A stretch of 41,390 nucleotides of DNA, taken from positions 1 through 41,390 of the forward strand of contig JACOVP010000005.1 of NCBI GenBank assembly GCA_016177265.1, written 5' to 3'. Shown here one piece after another: positions 15,863 through 38,533 of the stretch. The first letter of the stretch is position 1. Every line of letters starts with the position of its first letter. Source of the stretch: Candidatus Woesearchaeota archaeon. GTDB lineage: Archaea > Nanobdellota > Nanobdellia > SCGC-AAA011-G17 > UBA489. Both the position numbers and the translations under genes were made by a program. The notes beneath the pieces were generated by a model that saw nothing but the letters and a program-made list of their open reading frames with translations, was not told the origin of the DNA and ran no database searches.

Positions 15863-17160
15863 AATTCATCTGCCACCCACCAAGTTCCCAATCCAGGAAG
15901 ATTATTGCCCGTGATAGTAAAGTTATTTCTTCTTCTTATAGCCGTGAATTTGACTTCGTCTTTGATCATGCGAAAGGATGCCATATCTGGGACGTTGACG
16001 GAAAAAAATACTTAGACTTTGCAGCCGGCATCGCCGTTGCGAATATTGGTCATGCGCACCCTGCTGTCATCCACGCAATCAAAAAACAGATTGAAAAAGG
16101 ATCTCATGCTGCTTTCGGTGACTTTTATGCTGAACTCCCAGTACGTTTTGTAGAAAAATTGTTGACCTTTGTCCCGCCACATTTAAACAACGCTTTCCTT
16201 TCTAATTCTGGTACAGAAGCTGTCGAAGCAGCCTATAAATGTGCACGCTGGCATACGAACAAAAAATGGTTCATCGCTTTCGAACATGCCTTCCACGGTA
16301 GAACTATGGGTTCCCTCTCTTTGACGAAATCTAAACCCTCTCATCGAGAACGTTACGATCCTTTCTTACCTGTTGTTCATGTTCCCTTCCCGTATGTCTA
16401 TCGGATGCCTTTTTCCTCAGAAGATGAATGTGTGCAATATTGTCTCAATAAAATTGAAATTGCTATGAAAAAACACCACGGTGATATTGCAGGCTTGATG
16501 GTAGAGCCCATCCAAGGTGAAGGCGGTTATATTGTTCCTCCAGATAATTTCCATCGCGAAGTCAAAAAACTCTGTGAACGCTATAATGTCTTGTACTGCG
16601 CAGATGAAGTGCAATCTGGTTGTTTTCGGACAGGAACGTTTTTAGCATCTGAACAATTTAATGTCAAACCAGACCTAATTTCCTTGAGTAAAGCTATTGG
16701 TGGCGGTATTCCTATGGGCGTTACCCTTGCTAATAAAAAAACCATGGACTGGATACCTGGGAGTCATTCCAATACCTTCGGAGGAAATTTAATTGCCTGT
16801 GCTGCTGGTCTTGCTTCCTTAGATGTCATGAGGAAACAGAAGCTCGGGGAAAATGCCAAGAAACAGGGAAAACTGATGCTCAAAATCTTACAAGAAATGC
16901 AAGAAAGACATGAATACATTGGTGATGTCCGTGGTCGAGGTTTGATGATAGGTGTAGAAATTGTCAAAGACAAACACTCAAAACTAGCAGATGAAGAAAG
17001 AATGCAACACATCCTCTGTCATGCTGCTGCAGAAGGGCTTCTCTTATTAGGTGCTGGCCAGAGTGTCATCCGCATTTGTCCACCATTAACTTTAAATAGA
17101 GAACAGGTAGTAAATGGTTTAGTAATCTTAGAAGATGCCATCAAAACGGTGAAGCCATGA
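15859..17160 (+). CDS. Class III PLP-dependent aminotransferase (acetylornithine/GABA aminotransferase-like)
   Basis: It contains SNSGTEAVE, DEVQSGCFRTG and the PLP-lysine region SLSKAIGGG. An ATGA overlap links it to the upstream gene. Confidence 0.85.
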   Translation: MKFICHPPSSQSRKIIARDSKVISSSYSREFDFVFDHAKGCHIWDVDGKKYLDFAAGIAVANIGHAHPAVIHAIKKQIEKGSHAAFGDFYAELPVRFVEKLLTFVPPHLNNAFLSNSGTEAVEAAYKCARWHTNKKWFIAFEHAFHGRTMGSLSLTKSKPSHRERYDPFLPVVHVPFPYVYRMPFSSEDECVQYCLNKIEIAMKKHHGDIAGLMVEPIQGEGGYIVPPDNFHREVKKLCERYNVLYCADEVQSGCFRTGTFLASEQFNVKPDLISLSKAIGGGIPMGVTLANKKTMDWIPGSHSNTFGGNLIACAAGLASLDVMRKQKLGENAKKQGKLMLKILQEMQERHEYIGDVRGRGLMIGVEIVKDKHSKLADEERMQHILCHAAAEGLLLLGAGQSVIRICPPLTLNREQVVNGLVILEDAIKTVKP

Positions 17161-17744
17161 ATGCAAAATTGGTCATTATTCTTTTAGCATCCATAGTGAT
17201 TATAACTGCCTGTGCAGAACAATTCCAGCAACAACCATTCAGAGAATCCAAAAGGCAACTAACTCAACAACAAACTCCTAGTCCGCAAGCACAAGCAACA
17301 CCAACAGAAACAACAGCGATTGAAGGAGAAAAACCAGTAGTAACGCAACAAACTCCAACAGCAAAACAAGAACTACAAACGCCACAACAGAAGAAGACTG
17401 AAGCTGAATGTAAAAAGCAATGGGAAGTAGTAGCAGAAGCAAAAAATAGTTTCATATCCATAGAGAAAGGCTTAGTTGAGATCTTCTTCAGAGAAGGAAC
17501 AACCTTGGAGGAGGCAAAAGAAATTCTCAATGACTACCAGCTCCAGTTTAAAGAAGTAAAAGTTGTATTCCCCACCAAGGAACCACAGGCAATAGACAAA
17601 CTCTTCTCTTCCTATCGCAGAATCATAGCAGAAGTGCAACCAGGAAAAGAACTAGACAAGGGCTGTAAAACATTGCAAGAAGAAAGCGTTGAATCCGTTG
17701 CACCAGTCATCAAGATAGATATCAACGCTCTTGCAAAGAAATAA
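17157..17744 (+). CDS. Putative lipobox-containing secreted protein with a Gln/Thr/Pro-rich linker
   Basis: An N-terminal hydrophobic segment ends in ITAC (lipobox-like). A low-complexity QQQTPSPQAQATPTE linker follows. An ATGA overlap links it to the upstream gene. Confidence 0.6.
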   Translation: MNAKLVIILLASIVIITACAEQFQQQPFRESKRQLTQQQTPSPQAQATPTETTAIEGEKPVVTQQTPTAKQELQTPQQKKTEAECKKQWEVVAEAKNSFISIEKGLVEIFFREGTTLEEAKEILNDYQLQFKEVKVVFPTKEPQAIDKLFSSYRRIIAEVQPGKELDKGCKTLQEESVESVAPVIKIDINALAKK

Positions 17745-18469
17745 TGAGATTTATATACCTCCTCATCTTGCTGGTTCTCGTAGTTTCGGGTTGTTCAGGG
17801 GGTACACCGGAACAGATGCCAGAAGCAACAACGAAAGAAGTGAAGATTACTACAGAAGATCAAGTTGTCCTAGCTGCTACTCTTTATGAAACTATCAGTG
17901 AAAAAGCTGTCATCCTGCTCCACATGCTCGGCAATAATCGGCAGAGCTGGAAAGAACTTGCTCCCCTTTTGCAAAAGAATGGCTACAATGTGCTTGCTCT
18001 CGATCTCAGAGGTCATGGTCAAAGCCTAGAAAAGAATAAACAGAAAATCAGCTACATCAATTTTGCAGAACCAGACTTCCAGGATATGCTCAAAGACATC
18101 AAAGCAGCCAAGGAATTTCTCCAGAAACAAGGAGCATCGGAGATAAGTATTGTAGGTGCTTCCATCGGTGCAAATCTTGCTATTATCTATGCTGCGCAGG
18201 ACAAAGACATCCAGAAAATAGTTGCCCTTTCCCCAGGATTAAATTTTAAAGGACTCAAACCACAGGAACCAGCAAAGAAACTTACTATACCTATTTTCCT
18301 AGTGGCAGCAGAAGATGATCAATACTCAGCCATGTCATCCAGAACTTTAGAAGCAGTTATTCATAGTGACAAAGAACTCAAAATCTATCCAAAAGCAGAC
18401 CATGGAACAAGAATGTTTAATTATCAGCCAGAACTAAAAGAGTTCATAGTGAAGTTTCTAGAAAAATGA
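17744..18469 (+). CDS. Alpha/beta hydrolase with lipobox-like signal peptide
   Basis: The signal ends in VSGCSGG. It has the nucleophile elbow GASIGAN, an HG-type oxyanion region LDLRGHG and a C-terminal DHG. A TAATG overlap links it to the upstream gene. Confidence 0.75.
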   Translation: MRFIYLLILLVLVVSGCSGGTPEQMPEATTKEVKITTEDQVVLAATLYETISEKAVILLHMLGNNRQSWKELAPLLQKNGYNVLALDLRGHGQSLEKNKQKISYINFAEPDFQDMLKDIKAAKEFLQKQGASEISIVGASIGANLAIIYAAQDKDIQKIVALSPGLNFKGLKPQEPAKKLTIPIFLVAAEDDQYSAMSSRTLEAVIHSDKELKIYPKADHGTRMFNYQPELKEFIVKFLEK

Positions 18470-18476
18470 AAGCACG

Positions 18477-19442
18477 CTAGGTTAATACACTAAGAGGAGC
18501 TAGAAGTTCTTGATAAGGAATATGATCTAGAAAAGCGCTATAGTCGCGAGAAGAAAGATGAGAGGGATCCAGAACTGCTGAGTTAAATTTACGAACCAAA
18601 GGCCTCTCTTTCGGTGAGAATGGTTGTTTATAAACACAGATAGGATTTTTCCTTAGCTGTTCAGCGGCATAACGTCCTGCTTCTCCAGCTCGAGGATGTG
18701 TCAAGAGCTCATAACCACACAAAGCCAATCGCGAGATGTCCCTATCTGAACTAAGTATAGCAAAAGAGCCAGAATGCTTCGGGGAGAGTGACGTTGCCAT
18801 AGCAGCAGCAACGAGACTGATATCTGCAGCAAGATTCAATTCCGTTGGTAGAGGACGCTCTATCCTAGGGCCTCTAGAATACAAAAATGTATCCTTAGGA
18901 GAAAGAAAATGAAAATCAAACAAGAGTTGGAGCATTGCAGTAAAAGGAGCTACAGAGAGAGGAGGATGATAGCGGTGATGAGAAAGTCGTGCTATAAGCA
19001 TCTGCAAGGTATTTCCATAGTCATTGAGGATATCCAATCGGAGATCGAGTGTTTCCCTTCTTGTAGGAGTAAGGTCACGTCGCCGTATGATCTCGTGATG
19101 GTTATGCAACATCTTTGCAAAATGTTTCCCGCCACCTTTCACCTCTTCAACCACGAAATCAGTGACAGCAAGAGTACGTTTGGAGAAAAAAAGGTCCATG
19201 AGGAAAAAAAGATACTGTCGCGAATGATCAACAAATTCTATATCAATATCTTTGAGATGCGGTCTATTAGACATATAGGTCAGTAAATCTTCATGTGTAG
19301 GATACGTACGGATAGGGTGAAACATATTAGCATCTAGCAGAATCTGAGACTCGCGGCATAAAAGCGACTCTAAAGAAGATTCAAGCTCTTTCGGATGTGG
19401 CAGAATTGTTGTCTCTTGTTGAGTCGTGAACATCCCTAACAT
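18477..19442 (-). CDS. Hypothetical protein with PIN-like acidic motif pattern and a large insertion
   Basis: ILLDANMF, VTDFVVEEV, ADISLVAAA and SSDRDISRL occur in the order expected for the four PIN acidic positions. Otherwise I recognise nothing. Confidence 0.5.
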   Translation of the reverse strand: MLGMFTTQQETTILPHPKELESSLESLLCRESQILLDANMFHPIRTYPTHEDLLTYMSNRPHLKDIDIEFVDHSRQYLFFLMDLFFSKRTLAVTDFVVEEVKGGGKHFAKMLHNHHEIIRRRDLTPTRRETLDLRLDILNDYGNTLQMLIARLSHHRYHPPLSVAPFTAMLQLLFDFHFLSPKDTFLYSRGPRIERPLPTELNLAADISLVAAAMATSLSPKHSGSFAILSSDRDISRLALCGYELLTHPRAGEAGRYAAEQLRKNPICVYKQPFSPKERPLVRKFNSAVLDPSHLSSRDYSAFLDHIPYQELLAPLSVLT

Positions 19443-30137: not shown

Positions 30138-30256
30138 TGAGTATACTCAACTATATAAAAAGGTCAAATTCCTCTGTTTCCAGCCAAAAAGAAGCTATTC
30201 TATCCATTTCTCAAACACCAGCGATAAGTATTTATACGAGTTCTGCTATAGAGGGT

Positions 30257-30267
30257 AGTGAGGGGGT
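30257..30267 (+). repeat. 11-bp direct repeat, left copy, near the left edge of the high-GC block
   Basis: AGTGAGGGGGT is identical to 36782-36792. The match extends to GGG[T/G]AGTGAGGGGGT with one mismatch. Confidence 0.6.
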
Positions 30268-30507
30268 TGAGACAGAAAACCTAGAGTGTGAAAAGAGTCC
30301 TCTCTCTCATGCTCATAGTCATAGGAACCGGGTAGGGTGGGTTTTCTGCTATGTCTTTTCCCTAACACCTCTTTTCCCCACTCTACCTCTTCCTTGACAA
30401 TTCTGGTCTTGGTGCATTCCAGTTCAAGGCTTATAGCCTGGCCCGTGCTCGAAAACTGATAGCTGGCGGACTGTCCTCCAGGTAGCCCCGTTACCACAAG
30501 TGCGTGG

Positions 30508-30532
30508 GGGGTAGTGGGCTGGACTCTACCCC
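30508..30532 (+). repeat. Perfect 7-bp stem hairpin upstream of the integrase start
   Basis: GGGGTAG (30508-30514) pairs with CTACCCC (30526-30532) across an 11-nt loop. Confidence 0.6.
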
Positions 30533-30582
30533 AGGGTGGGGGAATGGTAGTGACAGGATCTGCTCGGGGGAGGAACGAGACC

Positions 30583-32040
30583 ATGGAGATCGAGTACATT
30601 GACGTGAACGAGGTGGAGAAACGCTTCAGGCAGGCGCTGGCGAGGTTTGAGCAACGGCCGGACGTGAGCGAGGGGAACAAGGAGCTGCTCAAGCGGTTTC
30701 TGCGGGAATCATTCTTGGGGAAGACGAATCCTGGGCGGGCGAAGAAGCGAGTCGGCTTCTCGCGACTGCAGGGCTACTTGAACTACCTGTCGACCTTGAT
30801 CCGGTTCGTCCGCAAGGACCTGGACCAGGTGACGCAGGGAGACATGGAGGGCTTCATCGAGGCGCTCGAGCGGAATGAGATCCTGTCCATCCGGCCCATC
30901 ATGTATGGTCGTTCAGGATGGAAGGTCGCGAACACCCCCTTCAGCAAGAGCCACAAGCTCCACCTCAAGATGGCTGTCCGGAAGTTCTATCGGTGGCTCC
31001 TGGGCAACAATCGGGAATACCCGCCCCTGGTGGACTGGATTGAAGTGCTCCCTGTGCACCAGGAGATCCCTGCGCTCACGGAGGAGGAGGTCAGGCAGCT
31101 GCTCGGAGCCTGTTCAAGGACCGTGCACCGCGCCCTGATCCAGATGCTCTTTGACGGTGGCTTTCGGATCGCGGAGCTCCTGAATGTGCGGCTGTGTCAT
31201 GTCCAGCTCCAGTGCGTCGACGAGGAGGCCGGGCGGAAGTGCTTCCTCGTCCGCATCCCCTTCTCGAAGACCATGCCGCGAACCATTGTTCTCCCCATGG
31301 AGACCACGACCCGATGGTTGTCCTTGTGGCTCGCAGAGCATCCTGCGCAACCTGAAGTCCGGGAGGATGGCACGATCCAGTGCGACCAACTCCAAGCCCA
31401 GCTCTTTCCCATGCCGGTGAAGCGAGCTCGCACCATCCTGAAGACAGCAGGGAAACGGGCTCTGGCCAAGCGGGTCTATCCCCACCTGATCCGCCACACC
31501 TCTGCCACTTACTGGGCGAACCGCCTTCCCTACTTCAAGTTCTGCAAGCGCTTCGGCTGGACATTGACGAGCAAGATGCCCCAGCGCTACATCGACCGCC
31601 AAGGGATTGATGACCTGGACGTGGCCAGGATCTATCGGCAGACCAAGACGCCGCGGCAACCCCAGAGTGCTCCATCACTGCCATGTCCCGCGCTTGAACG
31701 GGAGGAACCTGACCCTCGCCAGACCGTTGAAGCGGATGGCCCCCCTCCACTACTGAATGAAAGGAGTGAGGGTCGAGGGCGAGCTCCAACACCGCAGGCG
31801 CCACCTCATAGTGACCTCGAACGCCTCGAGCGTCTCGGCCAGGTGCTGTTGCAGGAGCTGTGGCGACTGAAGGATGGGCAGACCGAAAACGGAACACCGG
31901 CAGAACGGGCAACAACCCTCAATACTACGCCCGTCGACGCATCGGAGGGAATGGATAGACGCCCCCGTGAACCGCTCCCTCCATGGACAACAAATCATCG
32001 GCAGGTTGTGAAGCAACAACGGAGCGTCGGATCCTGGTGA
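30583..32040 (+). CDS. Tyrosine recombinase / integrase with long Pro/Arg-rich C-terminal tail
   Basis: The catalytic pattern is present: GFRIAELLNVR (Arg), HLIRHTSATYW (HxxR) and MPQRYIDRQG (Tyr). GGAGG lies about 10 nt upstream of ATG 30583. The track start at 30514 is GTG. Confidence 0.85.
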   Translation: MEIEYIDVNEVEKRFRQALARFEQRPDVSEGNKELLKRFLRESFLGKTNPGRAKKRVGFSRLQGYLNYLSTLIRFVRKDLDQVTQGDMEGFIEALERNEILSIRPIMYGRSGWKVANTPFSKSHKLHLKMAVRKFYRWLLGNNREYPPLVDWIEVLPVHQEIPALTEEEVRQLLGACSRTVHRALIQMLFDGGFRIAELLNVRLCHVQLQCVDEEAGRKCFLVRIPFSKTMPRTIVLPMETTTRWLSLWLAEHPAQPEVREDGTIQCDQLQAQLFPMPVKRARTILKTAGKRALAKRVYPHLIRHTSATYWANRLPYFKFCKRFGWTLTSKMPQRYIDRQGIDDLDVARIYRQTKTPRQPQSAPSLPCPALEREEPDPRQTVEADGPPPLLNERSEGRGRAPTPQAPPHSDLERLERLGQVLLQELWRLKDGQTENGTPAERATTLNTTPVDASEGMDRRPREPLPPWTTNHRQVVKQQRSVGSW

Positions 32041-32100
32041 ACCACGTGCCGCAGAATGCGCGGGATGAAGAGAACGCATGTCCTTCTCAGCCCGCGAGCG

Positions 32101-32355
32101 CTAGAATTTGTACGCATCGTGGCGGTGCCGAAGCGACCGAATGAACAGTTCATCAGAAGCACGGTCATGGTCGACGAACAGGCGGTAGGAACCGATGCGG
32201 ATCTTTCCGAAGTCAACACCCTCAAGATGCTCGATGTAACGGAGGACGTCCTTGGCGATGTCCCTGTGAAGCTTCTTGAGAATCCGTGCGCGGACATGGT
32301 GCTCAAGCTTATCTAAGGTGTCTTGAGCTTCCGGACCCCATCTAATCGACGTCAT
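32101..32355 (-). CDS. RelE/ParE-superfamily toxin
   Basis: The 84 aa product has the pattern IGSYRLFVDHD...LFIRSLRHRHDAY typical of RelE/ParE toxins. An ATGA overlap links it to the upstream antitoxin gene. Confidence 0.7.
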   Translation of the reverse strand: MTSIRWGPEAQDTLDKLEHHVRARILKKLHRDIAKDVLRYIEHLEGVDFGKIRIGSYRLFVDHDRASDELFIRSLRHRHDAYKF

Positions 32356-32564
32356 TGCACGTCGTACTTCTTGATCAGGTCCTCGTTGCTCACAAACTCA
32401 GTTCGTTTACGACGACGCGATGCTGCGACTTCGGCAATCACATCGTCCGCCACGCGGAGGTCGTCTTCGTTGACAGCGTCCTGCATGAGGAGGCGGAGCT
32501 GACGAACTTCTTTCCGGAGGCCGTGCAGTTCGCGGTGGACTTGCTGGAGCGTTACCGTTGTCAT
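32352..32564 (-). CDS. Putative antitoxin partner of the RelE-like toxin
   Basis: The 70 aa helical protein is translationally coupled upstream of the toxin. A TATA-like box (32585-32595) lies 26 nt upstream of the ATG. Confidence 0.6.
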   Translation of the reverse strand: MTTVTLQQVHRELHGLRKEVRQLRLLMQDAVNEDDLRVADDVIAEVAASRRRKRTEFVSNEDLIKKYDVQ

Positions 32565-32584
32565 GAAACTCTGGAAGAGGCGCT

Positions 32585-32595
32585 CCTATAAAAAG
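32585..32595 (-). promoter_or_regulatory. TATA-like box for the island antitoxin-toxin operon
   Basis: CTTTTTATAGG on the minus strand lies about 26 nt upstream of ATG 32564. It is an isolated A/T patch in GC-rich DNA. Confidence 0.45.
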
Positions 32596-32689
32596 ATTAC
32601 GCTTGGCGCTAGGAAGGAGAGCGAGCATCTCAGGTGATGGCTTATAAGGAATGGATCGACCGAAGGGCGAATAGTGAGAACCCTGTCCG

Positions 32690-34669
32690 ATGAACATGCC
32701 ATCCCTGCTGCGAAAACTCGAACCCCTCCTTCCAAGAGAAGTGAAACGGTGGCGTCTGATGCTTCCGTTGGTGAACGAGGACACGAGGAAACTCCTGGAG
32801 CGCCAGATCATCAGCCTAGCCCACAAGCATCTTGGGAATCACAACCAGCGGCTCTTGCTGCCACCTCCGCCAGAGAAGCTGTCCAAGGGCACGTTCAACC
32901 TCGGCACGATCCTCTATGACACGGAGAAGTGGTCATTCGCCTTGACGGAAGGAGAGCTGCTGCAGAACCTTGCCATCTTCGGTCGTTCTGGTGCAGGAAA
33001 AACGAATGTGGTCTTCCATCTCCTCCAGCAGTTTCTCAAGAAAGGCATCCCGTTCCTCTTCTTCGATTGGAAACGGACAGCACGCCATCTCCTTCCTCTC
33101 TTGAAGCACCCGGTGTTGCTCTACACGCCAGGACGAAAACTCGCTCCCTTTCCCTTCAACACCTTGATCCCGCCACCTGGTCTTGAACAGCATCTCCACG
33201 TGCAGCAGGTCCTGGACATCCTGGCAGCGGCCTACACCCTGGGTGACGGTGCCACGAGTCTCATCCAGCGCGTCCTCCAGGAATGGTACACGAAGAACGC
33301 AACACCGCCCATGATCCATGACCTCGTCCAAGAACTGCAATGCCTGAATGTGAAAGGTCGGGCTCACGGGTGGCATGCTTCGGCGGTGCGTGCACTCCAA
33401 AGTCTGGACTATGCTGACCTCGTTACTTCCACTGCTGAAGATCAGGAGGCCAGGGTCGACGAACTCCTCCACCACTCGACGATCCTCGAGCTCAATGGTC
33501 TGGGCGACAACGCGAAGCAGTTCCTCATTCCATCCATGCTCCTCTGGATCTTCAACGCCCGCCTCGCCAGGAGTGACCGAGAGCAGCTCCGCTTCGTGGT
33601 CATCGTGGAAGAGGCACACCACCTGCTCTACACGCGGAAGGGCCAGGAGTCCGCGATGGAACGCTTGGTCCGTCAATGTCGGGAGCTGGGCATCGCCATG
33701 GTCATCGTCGACCAGCACCCCCACTTGATTTCCAGCGCTGCCCTGGGTAATACCTTCACCACGATCTGCCTGAACCTCAAAGATCCCCGGGACATGAATC
33801 GTGCTGCTGCCCTCTGCCTCCTCGATGAAGAGGACCGTGGACACTTGAGCACGCTGCCCGTTGGTCATGGGATTGTGAAGCTCCAGAACCGCTGGCACCA
33901 ACCCTTCCTCGTTCGATTCCCTCTGGTGCAGGTGGAGAAGGGAGCAGTCACCAATGATCGCCTTCACGCCTTCCTCATTGGCAAGAGACCACGTTCGGGA
34001 CGAAAACCGCCTTTGTCGTTGAAGGAAGAGGGCGTTCGGCAGGTTCGGTTTGTGGATGTCATTCCTTCAGAGGATGCATGCCGTCTGATCGAGGATTGTG
34101 TCCTCCATCCCTTTGACGGGGTGAAGGCACGCTACCAACGCCTGAGTTGGAGTGCGGATAAGGGAACGAGGCTGGTGAGGGAGCTGGTGGCTGCAGGACT
34201 CCTGGAGTTGGAAAGGGTTGACCTTGGCACCACGAGGAAGACCTTGCTTCGGCCCAGTCGCAGTGCTAGGCTCGCCCTTGGCCTTGACCACCATCCCCAG
34301 CATGAGTCCATCGCCCATGAGTTTTGGAAGTACCACGTCGCTGCCCAGTTTCTGGAAGCGGAGTACCAGGTCGAGATCGAGGCTCCTCGTCCAAGGGGAG
34401 GAGGACGGGTGGACGTGCTGGCCAGGAAGGGCGAGGAATCTGTTGCCATCGAAGTCGAGACTGGGAAGAGTGACGTGGTGGGGAACGTGAAAGCTGACCT
34501 GGCAGCGGGGTTCACCAGGGTGGTGGTTATCGCCACGGATGATGTTGCGAGGGAGTCCATCGAGCGACAGCTAGGGAGGGCTGGACTGCTGATGACAGAA
34601 CGAGTGATCGTCGCCGACTTGGACATGGTCCTCCGTCACCCGGCGATAGACTACCGGAGGAAGCCCTAA
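32690..34669 (+). CDS. HerA/FtsK-like (DUF87-type) P-loop ATPase fused to winged-helix and PD-(D/E)xK-like nuclease modules
   Basis: It has Walker A GRSGAGKT (32981-33004), Walker B FVVIVEEAH and VIVDQHP. The C-terminal part reads GVKARYQRL...LVRELVAAGLL (wHTH-like) followed by VDVLA...AIEVETGKS (nuclease-like). Confidence 0.85.
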   Translation: MNMPSLLRKLEPLLPREVKRWRLMLPLVNEDTRKLLERQIISLAHKHLGNHNQRLLLPPPPEKLSKGTFNLGTILYDTEKWSFALTEGELLQNLAIFGRSGAGKTNVVFHLLQQFLKKGIPFLFFDWKRTARHLLPLLKHPVLLYTPGRKLAPFPFNTLIPPPGLEQHLHVQQVLDILAAAYTLGDGATSLIQRVLQEWYTKNATPPMIHDLVQELQCLNVKGRAHGWHASAVRALQSLDYADLVTSTAEDQEARVDELLHHSTILELNGLGDNAKQFLIPSMLLWIFNARLARSDREQLRFVVIVEEAHHLLYTRKGQESAMERLVRQCRELGIAMVIVDQHPHLISSAALGNTFTTICLNLKDPRDMNRAAALCLLDEEDRGHLSTLPVGHGIVKLQNRWHQPFLVRFPLVQVEKGAVTNDRLHAFLIGKRPRSGRKPPLSLKEEGVRQVRFVDVIPSEDACRLIEDCVLHPFDGVKARYQRLSWSADKGTRLVRELVAAGLLELERVDLGTTRKTLLRPSRSARLALGLDHHPQHESIAHEFWKYHVAAQFLEAEYQVEIEAPRPRGGGRVDVLARKGEESVAIEVETGKSDVVGNVKADLAAGFTRVVVIATDDVARESIERQLGRAGLLMTERVIVADLDMVLRHPAIDYRRKP

Positions 34670-35307
34670 TGGAAACTACATACCGTGTTATCGACTTGAC
34701 GGTTAACTTCGAGAAGCGGCGATTGATCCTCCACGAGATCGAGGCCAATAAACAAGCTCTTCTCGAGCTCCTGAACCCACAAGGAGGATACAATATTGGC
34801 ATCCGAAAGGAGGCTCTCATCCTTGATTTCGCGGCGGGTCGCTTCATCGCGGAGGAGACCGGGATCATTGCTTTCCATTTTCGTGGCGCTACTATCCAAA
34901 AAGTCCAGCAACCCATTATTGCATGTACATCGCACATTTGCGAGACCTTAGGCTGGCCCAGAAACAATGAACCAATCTCCGTGAACATAGAAATCGTCTC
35001 CGAGACGACTAAAGCAAACGCTGGTTCATTTACTGCGAAGCATCTAGATGTTCCCGCCCTAGAAACCCTCCTGTCGCAGAAGATTCCCCATGCTGGGCTG
35101 ACGCTCTTCCTAACGCCATTGGATACGCAACGACCACGAGAAGATGTGCGGGTGAGAATTGAGCCACTGGCCAAGGAGCCGCATCAGAAGCTCTACGTTC
35201 GCCTCTCATTGGACGCAGAGGACACGCGAATCGCCAAAATCGAAGCGCATCTGGCTAGGTGCGATACACTTCTCGGGCAGATACAGGAGGCGATAAGCGC
35301 ATCATGA
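34669..35307 (+). CDS. Hypothetical protein (operon gene 2)
   Basis: The 212 aa ORF has an ATG that overlaps the ATPase stop (TAATG). I recognise no motifs. Confidence 0.65.
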   Translation: METTYRVIDLTVNFEKRRLILHEIEANKQALLELLNPQGGYNIGIRKEALILDFAAGRFIAEETGIIAFHFRGATIQKVQQPIIACTSHICETLGWPRNNEPISVNIEIVSETTKANAGSFTAKHLDVPALETLLSQKIPHAGLTLFLTPLDTQRPREDVRVRIEPLAKEPHQKLYVRLSLDAEDTRIAKIEAHLARCDTLLGQIQEAISAS

Positions 35308-36272
35308 GCGTTGAACGTAGAGTGACGTTGAGATTAGGGACACTCGGCGCGAGGCAGAACAGTGGGATATCTAGATGGAAGGCGGTAAGCGAGCTGGAGG
35401 ATTGGAAAGCTTTAAGAACTCTGTTGACGAGGGAAACTGTTGGATCAAAGGCATGGGAGGAGGGCCGGCGATTTGGGGAGAGTAATACACTTACGGCACG
35501 TGAACGGATGATGGAGAAGCTCGAGGATGGGAGGACAGAGGACAAAGCGCTTTACGTCGCGCTTATTCAGAAGTATGAGAAGGAGTTGCGCACTAGGGCT
35601 GTGGCCGGGGAAAACAACATAGAGAGAGAGGCGTGCATCACCCATCTAGGAGTGCTCTACGATGACAAGCCGCAGGCACTGCAGGAGTATGGGGATGTGG
35701 ATCGACAGATCCTAGAGCAGATTCTGAAAGAAGGTGGACCATTTAGACAAATCCGGTCGGTCTTTCTGGCATTGCGCAGGAGACTAGAGAAGGGGAGTGG
35801 GTTCACGTGTGCGGAGCTTGAGCAGATCCTCGAAGGTGAGCGAGTCGTCATGCCGTCAACGACGCATATGGATCCGTTTGTGCGTAGGCGCGGTAGTCGA
35901 CTGCAGGAAGAGGGCTATAGATTGTTGCTGCGGTACTTCGGTGGGAAAGTAGGGGTAAAGGTGAAGGTGTATTCCGTGCGCGAGTATCATGCTGTATGTG
36001 AGAGAGGCGACCCGGATTGGTTGATTCGAGGAGAAGAAGGGACGGTGGAAGCACGAGCATTTAGAGCGTTGCGTTCCTTCGCGGGGATGCTGGAGAGCAT
36101 GAGAGCCTGGAATAGGGTGGAAGCATCGCTGCGTACGAGGGATCCAAGCCTGAGGGAAATGCGGGGGTGGGAAGTGAAAGAGACGATGGAGCGTCTGTTT
36201 GAGCGGGTCCGCAAGGGGGTAGAGGCGAAGTATAAGAGATGGGAGGAGTTTTGGCGGGGAGTGCGGAGATAA
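35304..36272 (+). CDS. Hypothetical Arg/Glu-rich helical protein (operon gene 3)
   Basis: It is 322 aa from ATG 35304, which overlaps the upstream stop (ATGA). The track start at 35259 is GTG. I recognise no motifs. Confidence 0.65.
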   Translation: MSVERRVTLRLGTLGARQNSGISRWKAVSELEDWKALRTLLTRETVGSKAWEEGRRFGESNTLTARERMMEKLEDGRTEDKALYVALIQKYEKELRTRAVAGENNIEREACITHLGVLYDDKPQALQEYGDVDRQILEQILKEGGPFRQIRSVFLALRRRLEKGSGFTCAELEQILEGERVVMPSTTHMDPFVRRRGSRLQEEGYRLLLRYFGGKVGVKVKVYSVREYHAVCERGDPDWLIRGEEGTVEARAFRALRSFAGMLESMRAWNRVEASLRTRDPSLREMRGWEVKETMERLFERVRKGVEAKYKRWEEFWRGVRR

Positions 36273-36727
36273 TGATCGCGGTGGATTCCGATGTCTTCTT
36301 GTCCGCGAAAGTGTTCAGCGGAAAGGATGAGAGGTCGAGGAAGAGCAACGAGTTTCTGGTTGCGGTCACCGGAGGGAATATGTGCACGACAGTGATTAAT
36401 GTTTTTGAGGTGTGTGGCGTTGCCGGTCCACATCTTGAGGAGGAGGAGCTACGGAAGTGGTTGCATAACTTTCGCGGGACGTTTGGTGTACAGATTCTGT
36501 TGCCGCGAGACGCGGCTCTTCCGCTTGGTTCCTTCTTTCGGATCTTGCCAACAATATTATTTGGTAAGCTTCACAAGGGGATGCGGTTTGGAGATGCTTT
36601 GATAATAGGAATTGTGGAAGGACATCCTGAGATACGAGAATTTGTTACGTGGAATGTGAAGGATTTCGATGGGAGGACGCGTCTGCGAGTGTCATCGCCA
36701 GCGGATTACTTGGCACGGGTGAGGTGA
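36272..36727 (+). CDS. PIN-domain nuclease (VapC-like; operon gene 4)
   Basis: It is 151 aa from ATG 36272, which overlaps the upstream stop (TAATG). The PIN acidic pattern is IAVDSDVF, VFEVCG, FGDALIIG and TWNVKDFD. Confidence 0.75.
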   Translation: MIAVDSDVFLSAKVFSGKDERSRKSNEFLVAVTGGNMCTTVINVFEVCGVAGPHLEEEELRKWLHNFRGTFGVQILLPRDAALPLGSFFRILPTILFGKLHKGMRFGDALIIGIVEGHPEIREFVTWNVKDFDGRTRLRVSSPADYLARVR

Positions 36728-36781
36728 CTGACTGGGGGGAGGCGAGATTCAGGGGATCATGGGAGGCACGGTGCTGTGGGG

Positions 36782-36792
36782 AGTGAGGGGGT
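36782..36792 (+). repeat. 11-bp direct repeat, right copy, 55 nt after the PIN gene stop
   Basis: AGTGAGGGGGT is identical to 30257-30267. Confidence 0.6.
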
Positions 36793-37071
36793 GAAGGGAG
36801 CATCTCAGCGAAACCTTTTTTAAGGATGACGCCGTGCCAAGTGCATGGGCCATGTCGAGTCAGGGAGAGTCCCGCAGTATGCGCAGGAGTTGTTGAAGTC
36901 AGTTCGAGAGAAGACGTGCTACCCTCTGGTCTGGCGACAACAACCCGGCCTCGGTCACGATTCGGAAGTCAAGGTTGCCCGTCCTGGCGAGAGATGCCAT
37001 GTGTTGCTCTACCGGCCTGAGTACCGGGACTACGAGCTCCACTTCGTGGTCAGGATCAGGGAAGAGCGTGA

Positions 37072-37713
37072 TCAACACGTTCCTCGTCGGCCAATACCTG
37101 CAACGAGGTGGCAGGGCTTGGGTGTGCGGATGACCTGGTAGAGGAGAGTTGCGAGCCGTTCCATCTCGCAGGTGATCGCGCGAATCTGTGGTTCAGTGAT
37201 TCCGTCCCAATAATATGCGAGGCGGCCGAGGACGCCGGTGACCCAGCACCCGATGGCATCGGACAGCTCAGGTTCCCTTGCCTCAAGATCCTGCCACCAA
37301 CGTGCGCGAACCTTGAGATCCTGGTCCTGGGCGATCGTCCGCCAGATCAAGTCGCGGGTGACAAGCGGATTTTCTTCATCTATAAACCCTCGCTCAATAT
37401 AAACCACCTTCTTTTTTTCTCGTTTGAACAAAAACTCATAATAGGCGGACTCATCTGTATCTTGAAATCTCCCCCATCTAGTGACATCAAAAAGAAGTAC
37501 ATAGTCAAATCGTTGTTCTTTAGTATATTGAAACAATGCTAAAAATCCAGGTCTATTTGCGTTTAGACCAGTCTTGCCGGCGTCTTGAAACTCTTTGATG
37601 ATACGGATGTTATGTTTCTTAGCAAATTTTTGGACTTCTTCTCTTTGAACGGGTATTGAGAACTCTTGTTTGTCCTCTGCAGAGTGACGATAATATGCTA
37701 CAGCTGTTTTCAT
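37072..37713 (-). CDS. Serine recombinase (resolvase/invertase catalytic domain); the 3' half lies in the high-GC block, so the gene is possibly chimeric or truncated
   Basis: The N-terminus reads AVAYYRHSAEDKQEFSIPVQ (catalytic Ser region), then DAGKTGLNANRPGF and LLFDVTRWGRF. A TATA-like box lies 26 nt upstream of the ATG. Composition switches inside the ORF at about 37368, and I see no recognisable DNA-binding domain after that point. Confidence 0.6.
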   Translation of the reverse strand: MKTAVAYYRHSAEDKQEFSIPVQREEVQKFAKKHNIRIIKEFQDAGKTGLNANRPGFLALFQYTKEQRFDYVLLFDVTRWGRFQDTDESAYYEFLFKREKKKVVYIERGFIDEENPLVTRDLIWRTIAQDQDLKVRARWWQDLEAREPELSDAIGCWVTGVLGRLAYYWDGITEPQIRAITCEMERLATLLYQVIRTPKPCHLVAGIGRRGTC

Positions 37714-37734
37714 TACTTATCAAAAAATTTATTG

Positions 37735-37744
37735 ATTTATAAAT
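37735..37744 (-). promoter_or_regulatory. TATA-like box for the serine recombinase gene
   Basis: The palindromic ATTTATAAAT lies about 26 nt upstream of ATG 37713. Confidence 0.4.
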
Positions 37745-37792
37745 GTACTTCTGTCGGTAGAAATTCTAGAAGAACGTACAGAAGAGCAAAAG

Positions 37793-37802
37793 ACTTATAA
37801 GG
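37793..37802 (+). promoter_or_regulatory. TATA-like box for the small antitoxin-like ORF
   Basis: ACTTATAAGG lies about 26 nt upstream of ATG 37823. Confidence 0.35.
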
Positions 37803-37822
37803 TCCAAAGGTATAGATGTTGT

Positions 37823-37981
37823 ATGAAACAAGAAATGATTCAAATAGCAAAGAAGGAATACGAGGAACTATTAGAAGAAGTTGGTATCTTGAGAAATCCT
37901 GCAATGATGGAGGCTATCAGAGAGAGTGACGAAGCTAAAAAGAAAGGTGTAAAAACCTGGAAGCTCAAAACTCATCCATAG
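37823..37981 (+). CDS. Small antitoxin-like protein (Phd/YefM C-terminal-like EYEELLE...ILRNP pattern)
   Basis: This 52 aa ORF is not in the track. A TATA-like box (37793-37802) lies 26 nt upstream of the ATG. The sequence is MKQEMIQIAKKEYEELLEEVGILRNPAMMEAIRESDEAKKKG. Confidence 0.45.
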   Translation: MKQEMIQIAKKEYEELLEEVGILRNPAMMEAIRESDEAKKKGVKTWKLKTHP

Positions 37982-38026
37982 ATCTTGTGAGAGCCAACAG
38001 CAACCACTAACAAAAAGGTAAAACCA

Positions 38027-38449
38027 ATGGAAGTCTATATCCACACCTTTACTCCAGAACCCTATGAAGTGAGAAAACCTATTCCTGTCATACTACAAAG
38101 AGAAGGGAAAGACAACTGTACAGCAGGCTGGTATGATGCAAATATCCATTCTGGCGGTGCGAATGAACAAGAAGCATTTGACAACCTAAAATCACTCGTG
38201 CTCGATGCATTTGAGTCATTAAGAAGTGAAAAACCAGAATCTCTTGGACCTGAACCAAAAAGATGCTTAGCAGTACTGAATGAATATCTCTATCCTAAAA
38301 GAGATACCAAAGATCCGTCATCACCCCCCAATCTTAAAGAAAAACTCGCAGCAATCGATCAACTATATCATCTATTGGATGATGCAACCCCTGAACAAAG
38401 AAAGGGCTTTTTTGAAAGCATTCGCCGAAGACCTTGGCATACCGAGTAA
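38027..38449 (+). CDS. Hypothetical protein, possibly HicB/UPF0150-like fold
   Basis: The 140 aa product has the segment PVILQREGKDNCTAGWYDANIHSGGANEQEAFDNLKSLV, which resembles the beta-beta-alpha core of HicB-like antitoxins. The functional call is tentative. Confidence 0.55.
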   Translation: MEVYIHTFTPEPYEVRKPIPVILQREGKDNCTAGWYDANIHSGGANEQEAFDNLKSLVLDAFESLRSEKPESLGPEPKRCLAVLNEYLYPKRDTKDPSSPPNLKEKLAAIDQLYHLLDDATPEQRKGFFESIRRRPWHTE

Positions 38450-38533
38450 TTCTGAAATAAGGGAGGTCTCAGAGAGAGTAGCAAAACCCTTTTAAACCGA
38501 ACTCTATATTCTAATATAATGGTTAGAAGAGAT

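What the first reader, a model, noticed from the sequence alone, without database searches (positions are those of the whole stretch)
34669..36272. Two orphan proteins sandwiched between the ATPase-nuclease and the PIN nuclease
Gene 2 (212 aa, mixed beta/alpha appearance) and gene 3 (322 aa, strongly Arg/Glu-rich and helical) have no motif I can place. Both are translationally coupled on both sides, so they are unlikely to be spurious. They may act as sensor, adaptor or regulator subunits. One possibility is a large antitoxin-like inhibitor of the downstream PIN nuclease, since no small VapB-like gene is present.
Basis: inference. Interest (0 to 1): 0.6.

Follow-up and report, generated by a model that had tools for sequence, protein, structure and literature searches.

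The report
Orphan cargo genes on integrated element
The two genes are real but almost unique: they travel with a PIN nuclease gene as swappable cargo on a small bacterial-type mobile element inserted in a tiny archaeal genome, and their function is still only inferred.

Summary
Window 34669-35307 (212 aa, gene 2) and 35304-36272 (322 aa, gene 3) are open frames chained by stop/start overlaps to an upstream HerA/FtsK-type ATPase-nuclease and a downstream gene. I confirmed that downstream gene as a PIN domain with a custom profile.

Gene 3 is a true ORFan: it matched only itself among 1.84 billion representative proteins. Gene 2 has one detectable relative (26% identity, full length), which also lies beside a homologue of the ATPase. 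Its AlphaFold model most resembles the TATA-binding-protein fold, with moderate confidence.

The block sits on a ~7 kb high-GC insertion that same-genus genomes lack. The insertion's integrase and ATPase are 59-60% identical to elements of Planctomycetota, and a ParE-like toxin pair lies between them. In those sister elements the slot behind the ATPase holds different genes, including known defence genes (dGTPase, Mrr-type nuclease, cyclase).

So genes 2 and 3 plus PIN are most likely a variable conflict cassette (defence or addiction), not core element genes. Gene 3 is the positional candidate for the PIN partner or antitoxin, but nothing tests this. Interest is moderate to low.

The parts
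34669..35307 (+). Gene 2, 212 aa, pI 6.2. A member of a two-sequence family. Predicted alpha/beta protein with a TBP-like repeat topology.
   Evidence: The ORF and overlaps are. Its only relative is L008:5991-6656(-), 26% identity over 200 aa, E 6e-18. The AF2 model has pLDDT 61 and pTM 0.63, with residues 1-112 at 74-88. Foldseek top hits are TBPs in PDB and TBP/TFIID-like proteins in BFVD.
35304..36272 (+). Gene 3, 322 aa, ORFan. Arg/Glu-rich, basic (pI 9.7, net +12), predicted all-helical. Translationally coupled to gene 2 and to the PIN gene.
   Evidence: Only a self-hit in the 5.8-billion word-index search and in the exhaustive phmmer search of 1.84 billion representatives. The AF2 single-sequence model has pLDDT 36.5. 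ORF length p is about 0.001 by shuffles. No internal repeats.
36272..36727 (+). PIN-domain (VapC-like) nuclease, 151 aa.
   Evidence: No Pfam hit. An HMM built from 24 PF01850-positive proteins gives 31.5 bits, E 4.7e-9, against a maximum of 2.9 bits in shuffles, and hhalign probability is 96.5%. D5, E46, D108 and N128/D131 align to the acidic signature. Full-length relatives (35% and 29% identity) occur in Planctomycetota.
32690..34669 (+). HerA/FtsK-type ATPase fused to a C-terminal PD-(D/E)xK-like nuclease module. A conserved backbone gene of the element family.
   Evidence: Family hits are DUF87 6e-7, CedD 2e-16 and mad8 7e-14, with weak Cas4/YraN hits at residues 553-617. At least 756 homologues at about 50% identity were found, mostly in Planctomycetota. 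D575, E588 and E590 are invariant across the family.
30514..32040 (+). Tyrosine integrase of the island.
   Evidence: Phage_integrase 1.4e-10 and XerA-like 1.3e-15. Close homologues sit directly upstream of the ATPase in L002, L003 and L111.
32101..32564 (-). ParE-like toxin (32101-32355, 84 aa) and an overlapping 70-aa upstream partner (32352-32564). Probably the island's addiction pair.
   Evidence: Pfam ParE_toxin 7.6e-5, above the cut-off. The partner has only a faint Arc-like hit. GC by codon position is strongly coding-like.
30400..37368 (.). High-GC (52-61%) inserted block that carries all of the above. Same-genus genomes lack it.
   Evidence: Composition. In congeners G002 and G004 the flanks are contiguous, and homology runs up to window 30399 and resumes at 38479.

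Best explanation
Genes 2 and 3 are real protein-coding genes. Together with the PIN gene they form a variable cargo cassette in the slot behind the backbone ATPase of a small integrative element. The element's backbone is a tyrosine integrase and a HerA/FtsK-wHTH-nuclease ATPase, with a ParE-type addiction pair between them. It is of Planctomycetota type and has inserted into a small archaeal chromosome.

Shown:
- The insertion, the backbone and its relatives.
- The PIN identity of the downstream gene.
- The orphan status of gene 3.
- The single gene 2 relative next to another ATPase homologue.

Inferred: the cassette is a nucleic-acid-directed conflict module, either defence against other mobile elements or an addiction function.
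- The PIN protein is the nuclease effector.
- Gene 3 is a basic helical protein made in fixed ratio with PIN through the TAATG overlap. It is PIN's bound partner, most likely an inhibitor or regulator that holds it inactive.
- Gene 2 is a probable TBP-fold nucleic-acid-binding protein. It acts as the sensor or adaptor and may work with the ATPase.
For: - Real genes in one transcription unit.
- The island is a true insertion. Same-genus genomes have the two flanks 170-330 bp apart.
- Integrase and ATPase are 59-60% identical to L002, L003 and L111. There the integrase directly precedes the ATPase and the downstream genes differ. Those include dGTPase (PADLOC 6e-89), an Mrr_cat protein (PDC-M58A) and a cyclase (PycC-like).
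- GC3 of genes 2, 3 and PIN (0.56-0.60) differs from that of integrase and ATPase (0.70-0.74).
- In about 80 ATPase loci the conserved partners lie upstream: a wHTH protein, a DNA methylase, an ArdC-like protein and a 144-aa protein. None of them is in the window.
- PIN is confirmed. Its relatives have a coupled upstream gene.
- The only gene 2 relative lies 340 bp from another ATPase homologue, next to a Ppl defence gene.
- Gene 2 resembles the TBP fold in two independent libraries.
Against: - No experiment or co-fold supports any interaction.
- Gene 3 is an ORFan, so conservation cannot support a function.
- Gene 3 is basic like PIN (pI 9.7 against 8.7), whereas many antitoxins are acidic.
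- The TBP-fold call rests on a two-sequence alignment (pLDDT 61). Residues 113-174 are unmodelled, global TM-scores against PDB are 0.3-0.4, and the best BFVD hit reaches 0.6.
- The Pfam TBP model does not hit gene 2.
- The genes following the gene 2 relative in L008 (303 and 170 aa) are unrelated to gene 3 and PIN, so the trio as such is not conserved.
- The four genes are tightly coupled, which would equally fit a single ATPase-centred machine.
Confidence: 0.45

Rival explanations
1. The ATPase-nuclease, gene 2, gene 3 and PIN are four subunits of one machine. It could be an ATPase-driven anti-invader system. It could also be a DNA-processing or donation apparatus like the TdtA operon of ICEth1, in which a HerA-type pump works with accessory nucleases.
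For: - All four genes are chained by 1-4 nt stop/start overlaps with no internal terminator.
- Both known gene 2 family members sit next to this ATPase family.
- ICEth1 has an integrase plus a four-gene operon in which a HerA-like ATPase needs two nucleases for DNA donation (PMC5365140).
- HerA/FtsK + wHTH + REase combinations are described in both mobile elements and anti-invader systems (PMC10853773).
Against: - About 80 loci of the ATPase family, including the three closest, lack gene 2, gene 3 and PIN and carry other genes downstream.
- The trio's codon composition differs from the ATPase's.
- Relatives of the PIN occur without the ATPase.
- In L008 the gene 2 relative is on the opposite strand from the ATPase.
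Confidence: 0.25
2. Genes 2 and 3 are housekeeping proteins of the element itself. Examples would be a replication initiator, a partition or excision cofactor, or a transfer accessory protein that has diverged beyond recognition.
For: - Small integrative elements need such functions, and none is annotated on this island apart from the integrase.
- Gene 2 may be a DNA-binding fold.
- Gene 3 is basic.
Against: - The closest sister elements, with the same integrase and ATPase, have no counterpart.
- There are no hits to any plasmid or phage record or family.
- The family's conserved accessory genes (wHTH/Replic_Relax-like, methylase, ArdC-like) are different proteins located upstream.
Confidence: 0.12
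3. Gene 3 is not a functional protein. It would be a chance, decaying or very recently arisen open frame in purine-rich high-GC DNA between gene 2 and PIN.
For: - No homologue exists among 1.84 billion representatives.
- The AF2 model has no confident fold.
- High-GC DNA throws up long frames, and several antisense ORFs of 150-340 aa are present on the island.
Against: - A frame of this length arose in 1 of 1000 shuffles.
- GC by codon position is coding-like.
- It has exact ATGA and TAATG overlaps with both neighbours and an upstream AGGAGG motif.
- An independent gene caller predicted it.
Confidence: 0.08

Closest known systems
VapBC-type (PIN) type II toxin-antitoxin modules
   Same: There is a VapC-like PIN domain with the acidic signature. 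The upstream gene overlaps the PIN start, as antitoxin genes do. The module is carried on a mobile element. Relatives of this PIN have a coupled 134-137 aa upstream gene.
   Different: The upstream gene is 322 aa, basic, and has no recognisable DNA-binding antitoxin domain or homologue. A third coupled gene (gene 2) and a large ATPase precede it. Neither toxicity nor neutralisation has been tested.
ICEth1 of Thermus thermophilus (integrase plus the TdtA four-gene operon; PMC5365140)
   Same: Both are small integrative elements with a XerC-type integrase and an operon built around a HerA-type hexameric DNA pump with associated nucleases. The wider ATPase family here is also often linked to a PF01555 methylase, as tdtA is.
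   Different: Here the nuclease module is fused to the ATPase. There is no NurA, type IIG enzyme or methylase on the island. Genes 2 and 3 have no counterpart in ICEth1. No similarity to TdtA itself was tested.
TATA-binding-protein fold (TBP-domain superfamily)
   Same: The gene 2 model has the strand/helix order S1-H1-S2-S3-S4-S5-H2 in its N half. The confidently modelled parts of the C half repeat that order. TBPs are the top Foldseek hits in PDB, and TBP/TFIID-like giant-virus proteins are among the top hits in BFVD.
   Different: There is no sequence-profile match to Pfam TBP, although the host's own TBP scores 113 bits in the same search. No internal sequence repeat is detectable. The middle of the C half is unmodelled and global TM-scores are low.
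Defence-gene cargo hot spots of integrative elements
   Same: Sister elements with the same integrase-ATPase backbone carry dGTPase, Mrr-type nuclease or cyclase genes in the same position. L008 has a Ppl gene beside the ATPase.
   Different: None of gene 2, gene 3 or PIN matches any PADLOC model. A defence function is inferred from position only.

Membership tests
PIN domain (PF01850-like, VapC type), for the downstream gene | Profile match over the whole domain | tested here: met
   Pfam itself gives no hit at E<=1. An HMM built from 24 PF01850-positive proteins of related genomes gives 31.5 bits, E 4.7e-9, over positions 2-124 of 131. The best of the 2000 shuffled sequences scored 2.9 bits. 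hhalign probability is 96.5%.
PIN domain (PF01850-like, VapC type), for the downstream gene | Conserved acidic residues (D, E, D, D/N-x-x-D) | tested here: met
   D5, E46, D108 and N128/D131 align with the conserved acidic columns. They are also conserved in the 35% and 29% identical relatives (alignment).
Type II toxin-antitoxin pair VapBC (gene 3 as antitoxin) | Antitoxin gene directly upstream and translationally coupled | tested here: met
   TAATG overlap at 36270-36274. The same layout occurs in PIN relatives L150 and L151.
Type II toxin-antitoxin pair VapBC (gene 3 as antitoxin) | Small antitoxin (about 70-140 aa) with an AbrB, RHH, Phd or HTH DNA-binding domain | tested here: not met
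   Gene 3 is 322 aa, with no family hit at E<=1 in four libraries and no PDB sequence hit. It is basic, pI 9.7.
Type II toxin-antitoxin pair VapBC (gene 3 as antitoxin) | Toxin arrests growth and the antitoxin binds and neutralises it | not testable with these tools
   This needs expression assays or complex prediction. Only single-chain prediction was available.
TBP-domain fold (gene 2) | Two tandem S1-H1-S2-S3-S4-S5-H2 repeats forming a saddle | tested here: inconclusive
   The N repeat is complete at pLDDT 74-88. The C repeat has S1', H1', S5' and H2', but residues 113-174 are below pLDDT 50. Foldseek: PDB TBPs E 1.5e-3 to 3e-2, probability up to 0.96, TM 0.31-0.39. BFVD best E 2e-6, best TM 0.59/0.61.
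TBP-domain fold (gene 2) | Sequence-profile match to TBP (PF00352) | tested here: not met
   A six-frame search of the genome at E<=10 hits only the host TBP on contig C57, not 34669-35307. The Pfam scan is also empty.
Known anti-phage defence systems (PADLOC 2.0) | Any component model matching gene 2, gene 3 or PIN | tested here: not met
   No hits at E<=1. Only the ATPase hits models: mad8 7e-14, and HerA and DndH ATPase domains.
HerA/FtsK-type ATPase-nuclease backbone family (context gene) | Gene 2 and gene 3 conserved as neighbours of the ATPase | tested here: not met
   Among about 80 genome loci and 7 metagenome loci there is one gene 2 relative and no gene 3 relative. The conserved partners are four other proteins that lie upstream.
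   PHROGs and Pfam are empty. tblastn against 72,556 plasmids and 50,697 phages gives no match at E<=0.01. The pattern scan of IMG/VR is empty for gene 2.

The most novel reading that the evidence does not exclude
Gene 2 is a bacterial-element TBP-fold DNA reader. It teams up with the HerA-wHTH-nuclease pump, and gene 3 and the PIN nuclease act as a regulated effector pair. The four genes would then form an undescribed ATPase-guided anti-invader system. It would be carried by a Planctomycetota-type integrative element that has crossed into a DPANN-like archaeon.
Probability: 0.12. Interest if true: 0.65.

Novelty: new variant of a known kind. Interest (0 to 1): 0.35.

Why it matters
If gene 3 neutralises the PIN nuclease, it would be an unusually large antitoxin with no sequence relatives. 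If gene 2 really has a TBP-like saddle, it would add a mobile-element member to a fold known mostly from transcription factors and a few nucleic-acid enzymes.

The better-supported result concerns the context. A very large, unstudied family of HerA-wHTH-nuclease ATPases marks small integrative elements, and the slot behind the ATPase collects defence-type cargo. One such bacterial-type element sits in an archaeal chromosome.

For the two genes themselves the evidence reaches only as far as 'real, nearly unique cargo genes of inferred function'.

Tried and rejected
**Family and homology searches**
- Family scans of gene 2, gene 3 and PIN in Pfam, PADLOC, NCBIfam and PHROGs at E<=1 returned nothing.
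- Word-index homology searches found only self-hits. The exhaustive phmmer search for gene 3 also found only itself.
- Pattern scans for the gene 2 family in metagenome and viral contigs found nothing.
- Six-frame profile searches found nothing new in 40 relatives or in 400 Planctomycetota genomes.
- jackhmmer over all fetched loci found nothing new.
- PDB sequence searches returned nothing meaningful.
- tblastn against plasmids and phages returned nothing.

**Hypotheses tested and rejected**
- Genes 2, 3 and PIN are diverged, permuted copies of the ATPase's usual upstream partners (about 193, 261/293 and 144 aa). Rejected: the HMM and hhalign comparisons are all null.
- The 205-aa protein two genes upstream of a PIN relative (L150/L154) belongs to the gene 2 family. 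Only a short RVRxEP-like motif matches. hhalign probability is 0.2-0.3% even with a 10-row profile (9 family members plus the query). Rejected.
- The C-terminal third of gene 3 is a degenerate PIN copy. Pairwise Smith-Waterman gives z = 3.9 (2 of 1000 shuffles reach the score), but a PIN-subfamily HMM gives no hit. Not supported.
- The shared W-x-R-G-x-R tail of gene 3 and of the 134-aa protein upstream of a PIN relative reflects homology. It is more simply explained by an in-frame Shine-Dalgarno sequence for the overlapping PIN start (inference).

**Steps not possible or not run**
- The gene 3 AF2 model (pLDDT 36.5) is too poor for a fold search, so none was run.
Junction reads, coverage, excision circles and expression could not be checked.
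- No tRNA gene or Rfam family lies at the island ends.
Full report
**1. The observation**

The window has ORFs at 34669-35307 (212 aa, gene 2) and 35304-36272 (322 aa, gene 3). The sequence shows three overlaps directly:
- The upstream ATPase gene ends in TAA at 34667-34669, sharing its last A with the ATG of gene 2.
- Gene 2 and gene 3 share ATGA at 35304-35307.
- Gene 3 ends in TAA at 36270-36272, sharing its A with the ATG of the next gene (36272-36727).

An independent gene call on a Logan contig of the same locus (L001, 100% identical to window 31203-37243) gives the same 212, 322 and 151 aa products.

Both frames look coding:
- GC by codon position is 0.59/0.39/0.57 for gene 2 and 0.59/0.44/0.60 for gene 3.
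- GGAGG-like motifs precede the starts.
- No terminator-like site on the + strand interrupts the block.
- In 1000 dinucleotide shuffles of 34669-36272, a stop-free frame of at least 322 codons arose once. A frame of at least 212 codons arose 29 times.

Gene 3 is therefore supported by length. Gene 2 is supported by having a homologue (section 3).

**2. Context: a foreign island**

The window is about 40% GC, except for 30.3-37.4 kb at 52-61%. The assembly is 688 kb in 57 contigs at 41% GC and 71% complete. Its relatives have complete genomes of 0.6-1.1 Mb. It encodes a canonical two-repeat TBP (113 and 99 bits). The window's flanking genes are ordinary metabolism genes, several with archaeal-type best matches. 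The host is therefore most likely a small-genome archaeon.

In same-genus genomes G002, G004 and G001 the two flanks are adjacent. A direct alignment shows homology up to window 30399, resuming at 38479, with only about 80-170 bp between them in the relatives. So 30400-38478 is an insertion. It consists of the high-GC block (30400-37368) and an AT-rich piece with a truncated serine-recombinase gene (37369-38478; Resolvase domain 9e-17).

The high-GC block carries, in order:
- a tyrosine integrase at 30514-32040;
- on the minus strand, a ParE-like toxin with an overlapping 70-aa partner at 32101-32564;
- the ATPase at 32690-34669;
- gene 2, gene 3 and the 151-aa gene;
- a 98-aa ORF of unknown function.

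None of these has a second copy in the assembly.

**3. Relatives**

Gene 3 matched only itself in the 5.8-billion-protein word-index search. It also matched only itself in an exhaustive phmmer search of 1.84 billion representatives. The one other hit there is a 24-residue stretch in a 1522-aa protein.

Gene 2 also found only itself by word index. Local phmmer against ORFs of loci fetched through the ATPase found one full-length relative: L008:5991-6656(-), 221 aa, 26% identity over 200 residues, E 6e-18. It lies 340 bp from a 48%-identical ATPase homologue in a Planctomycetota MAG, on the opposite strand. It heads its own three-gene string (221, 303 and 170 aa), and the last two proteins are unrelated to gene 3 or PIN.

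No further member appeared in any of these searches:
- 40 relatives of the host;
- 400 Planctomycetota genomes;
- metagenome or viral pattern scans;
- plasmid and phage records;
- jackhmmer over everything fetched.

**4. The ATPase is a backbone gene and the slot behind it is variable**

The ATPase has at least 756 homologues of the same length at about 50% identity. They are mostly in Planctomycetota (Phycisphaerae, Pirellulales, Brocadiales). There are often several per MAG and often on short contigs.

In about 80 genome loci the conserved neighbours lie upstream on the same strand:
- a 144-aa protein directly before the ATPase (44 loci);
- a 193-aa wHTH-like protein with a faint Replic_Relax hit (38 loci);
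- a DPPY DNA methylase (25 loci);
- an ArdC-like HExxH protein (7 loci);
- integrases (17 loci).

None of these proteins is encoded in the window. None is related to gene 2, gene 3 or PIN by hhalign.

The three closest ATPases (59-60% identity; L002, L003, L111) each have a 403-aa integrase overlapping the ATPase start. That integrase is homologous to the window's (E about 1e-127 for L002 and L003; L111 by gene layout and Pfam only). Different genes follow in each:
- L002: two unknown proteins plus a dGTPase (PADLOC 6e-89).
- L003: two small proteins plus an 878-aa Mrr_cat protein, inside a TIR/ThsB-rich region.
- L111: a 290-aa unknown plus a cyclase (Guanylate_cyc 7e-7, PycC-like).

L008 has a Ppl-type gene (1e-35) beside its ATPase.

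GC3 of genes 2, 3 and PIN (0.56-0.60) is lower than that of integrase and ATPase (0.70-0.74).

Taken together, integrase and ATPase are the element's backbone, and the position behind the ATPase is a cargo slot often filled with defence genes. The closest described analogue of the backbone is ICEth1 of Thermus thermophilus. That element has a XerC-type integrase and a four-gene operon with the HerA-like pump TdtA, two nucleases and a PF01555 methylase (PMC5365140). A comparative study describes HerA/FtsK + wHTH + REase combinations in both mobile elements and anti-invader systems (PMC10853773).

**5. The downstream gene is a PIN domain**

Pfam, NCBIfam and PDB sequence searches gave nothing. 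I built an HMM from 24 PF01850-positive proteins of the host's relatives.
- It scores the 151-aa protein at 31.5 bits (E 4.7e-9 among all window frames), against at most 2.9 bits for 2000 shuffles.
- hhalign gives 96.5% probability.
- D5, E46, D108 and N128/D131 fall on the acidic columns.

Full-length relatives (35%, 29% and 24% identity) occur in 3 of 401 Planctomycetota genomes. In two of them a 134- or 137-aa gene overlaps the PIN start, which is the usual toxin-antitoxin layout. One of these sits beside prohead-protease and HK97-capsid genes and away from any ATPase homologue. The PIN gene and its partner therefore move independently of the ATPase.

**6. Structure**

The gene 2 model was built from a two-sequence alignment. 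It has pLDDT 61 and pTM 0.63, with residues 1-112 at 74-88 and residues 113-174 unmodelled.
- Its elements run E5-14, H21-35, E40-46, E49-54, E57-62, E66-74, H76-94, then E103-113, H128-135..., E173-180, H188-211.
- That is the S1-H1-S2-S3-S4-S5-H2 order of a TBP repeat (my knowledge of the fold), occurring once in full and once in part.
- In PDB, Foldseek puts TBPs in 10 of the top 15 places (E 1.5e-3 to 3e-2, probability up to 0.96, TM 0.31-0.39).
- In BFVD the top hit has E 2e-6. The list includes giant-virus TFIID/TBP-like proteins, with a best TM of 0.59/0.61.
- The Pfam TBP model does not hit gene 2, and no internal sequence repeat is detectable.

I rate the TBP-like fold as probable, not established.

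The gene 3 single-sequence model is unusable (pLDDT 36.5), though uniformly helical. The protein is basic (pI 9.7, net +12) and has no internal repeats.

**7. Interpretation**

Shown:
- Both genes are real.
- They lie on a foreign integrative element.
- They are not core to that element family.
- One is an ORFan, and the other belongs to a two-member family linked twice to the ATPase family.
- The downstream gene is a PIN nuclease whose relatives have coupled upstream partners.

Inferred: the trio is a conflict cassette (defence or addiction). PIN is the effector, gene 3 its stoichiometrically co-translated partner (inhibitor or regulator), and gene 2 a nucleic-acid-binding sensor or adaptor.

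The main rival is that all four coupled genes form one ATPase-centred machine. It is kept alive by the tight coupling and by the 2-of-2 linkage of gene 2 with the ATPase. It is weakened by the absence of the trio from about 80 other ATPase loci.

Position favours it. Size, charge and the lack of any antitoxin domain do not.

**8. Limits**

- Only two structure jobs and one exhaustive search were allowed.
- No complex prediction was available.

Noticed in passing
window 30250-30399: This GC-rich 150-nt intergenic stretch is host sequence, not island. It is conserved at 68-79% identity in same-genus genomes that lack the island. It folds as a stem of about 21 predicted pairs (2 compensatory pairs in 3 sequences) around an invariant loop. 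The island begins immediately after its last bases (TTGACA). There is no tRNA or Rfam match. It is a candidate structured RNA serving as the integration site. The earlier-noted left 'att' repeat (30253-30267) lies inside this host element.
   Followed up: partly
window 32101-32564 (- strand): A ParE-like toxin (84 aa, Pfam 7.6e-5, above the cut-off) and an overlapping 70-aa upstream partner lie between the integrase and the ATPase. They are probably the island's own addiction pair.
   Followed up: partly
window 30400-37368 versus the rest of the assembly: The island's integrase and ATPase are 59-60% identical to proteins of Planctomycetota (one on a 340-kb MAG contig). ATPase relatives in the host's own order reach only 27-35%. 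The host has a canonical archaeal TBP. This looks like a bacterium-to-archaeon transfer, unless the contig is a double-junction chimera. Reads could not be checked.
   Followed up: partly
window 37072-38478: The serine-recombinase ORF has an AT-rich resolvase domain (codons 4-116) and then runs on into high-GC island DNA, so the island landed in or truncated it. The whole AT-rich piece 37369-38478 is also missing from congeners at this site. Window 37822-38013 matches another contig of a congener at 83%, which suggests an older host-lineage mobile remnant.
   Followed up: partly
assembly contig C9, about 17000-19000: This is the only other stretch of the assembly above 50% GC (57%). It is not rRNA (no Rfam hit) and may be a second foreign block.
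   Followed up: partly
loci L005-L083 (Planctomycetota and others): The ATPase family usually ends an operon of a wHTH/Replic_Relax-like protein, a DPPY DNA methylase, sometimes an ArdC-like protein, and a 144-aa protein. It occurs in several copies per MAG and often on short contigs. This appears to be a large family of integrative or mobilisable elements. I searched the paper library once for these elements and found no description.
   Followed up: partly
L154:8663-10150 (Planctomycetota genome G487): A PIN relative (35% identity) forms a three-gene string with a 134-aa protein and a 205-aa protein. The 205-aa protein belongs to a 9-member family whose members all have different downstream partners. 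The string lies directly upstream of prohead-protease and HK97-capsid genes.
   Followed up: partly
window 36845-37141: A 98-aa ORF with strongly coding-like GC by codon position (0.66/0.43/0.68) lies at the right end of the island. It has no family hit.
   Followed up: no
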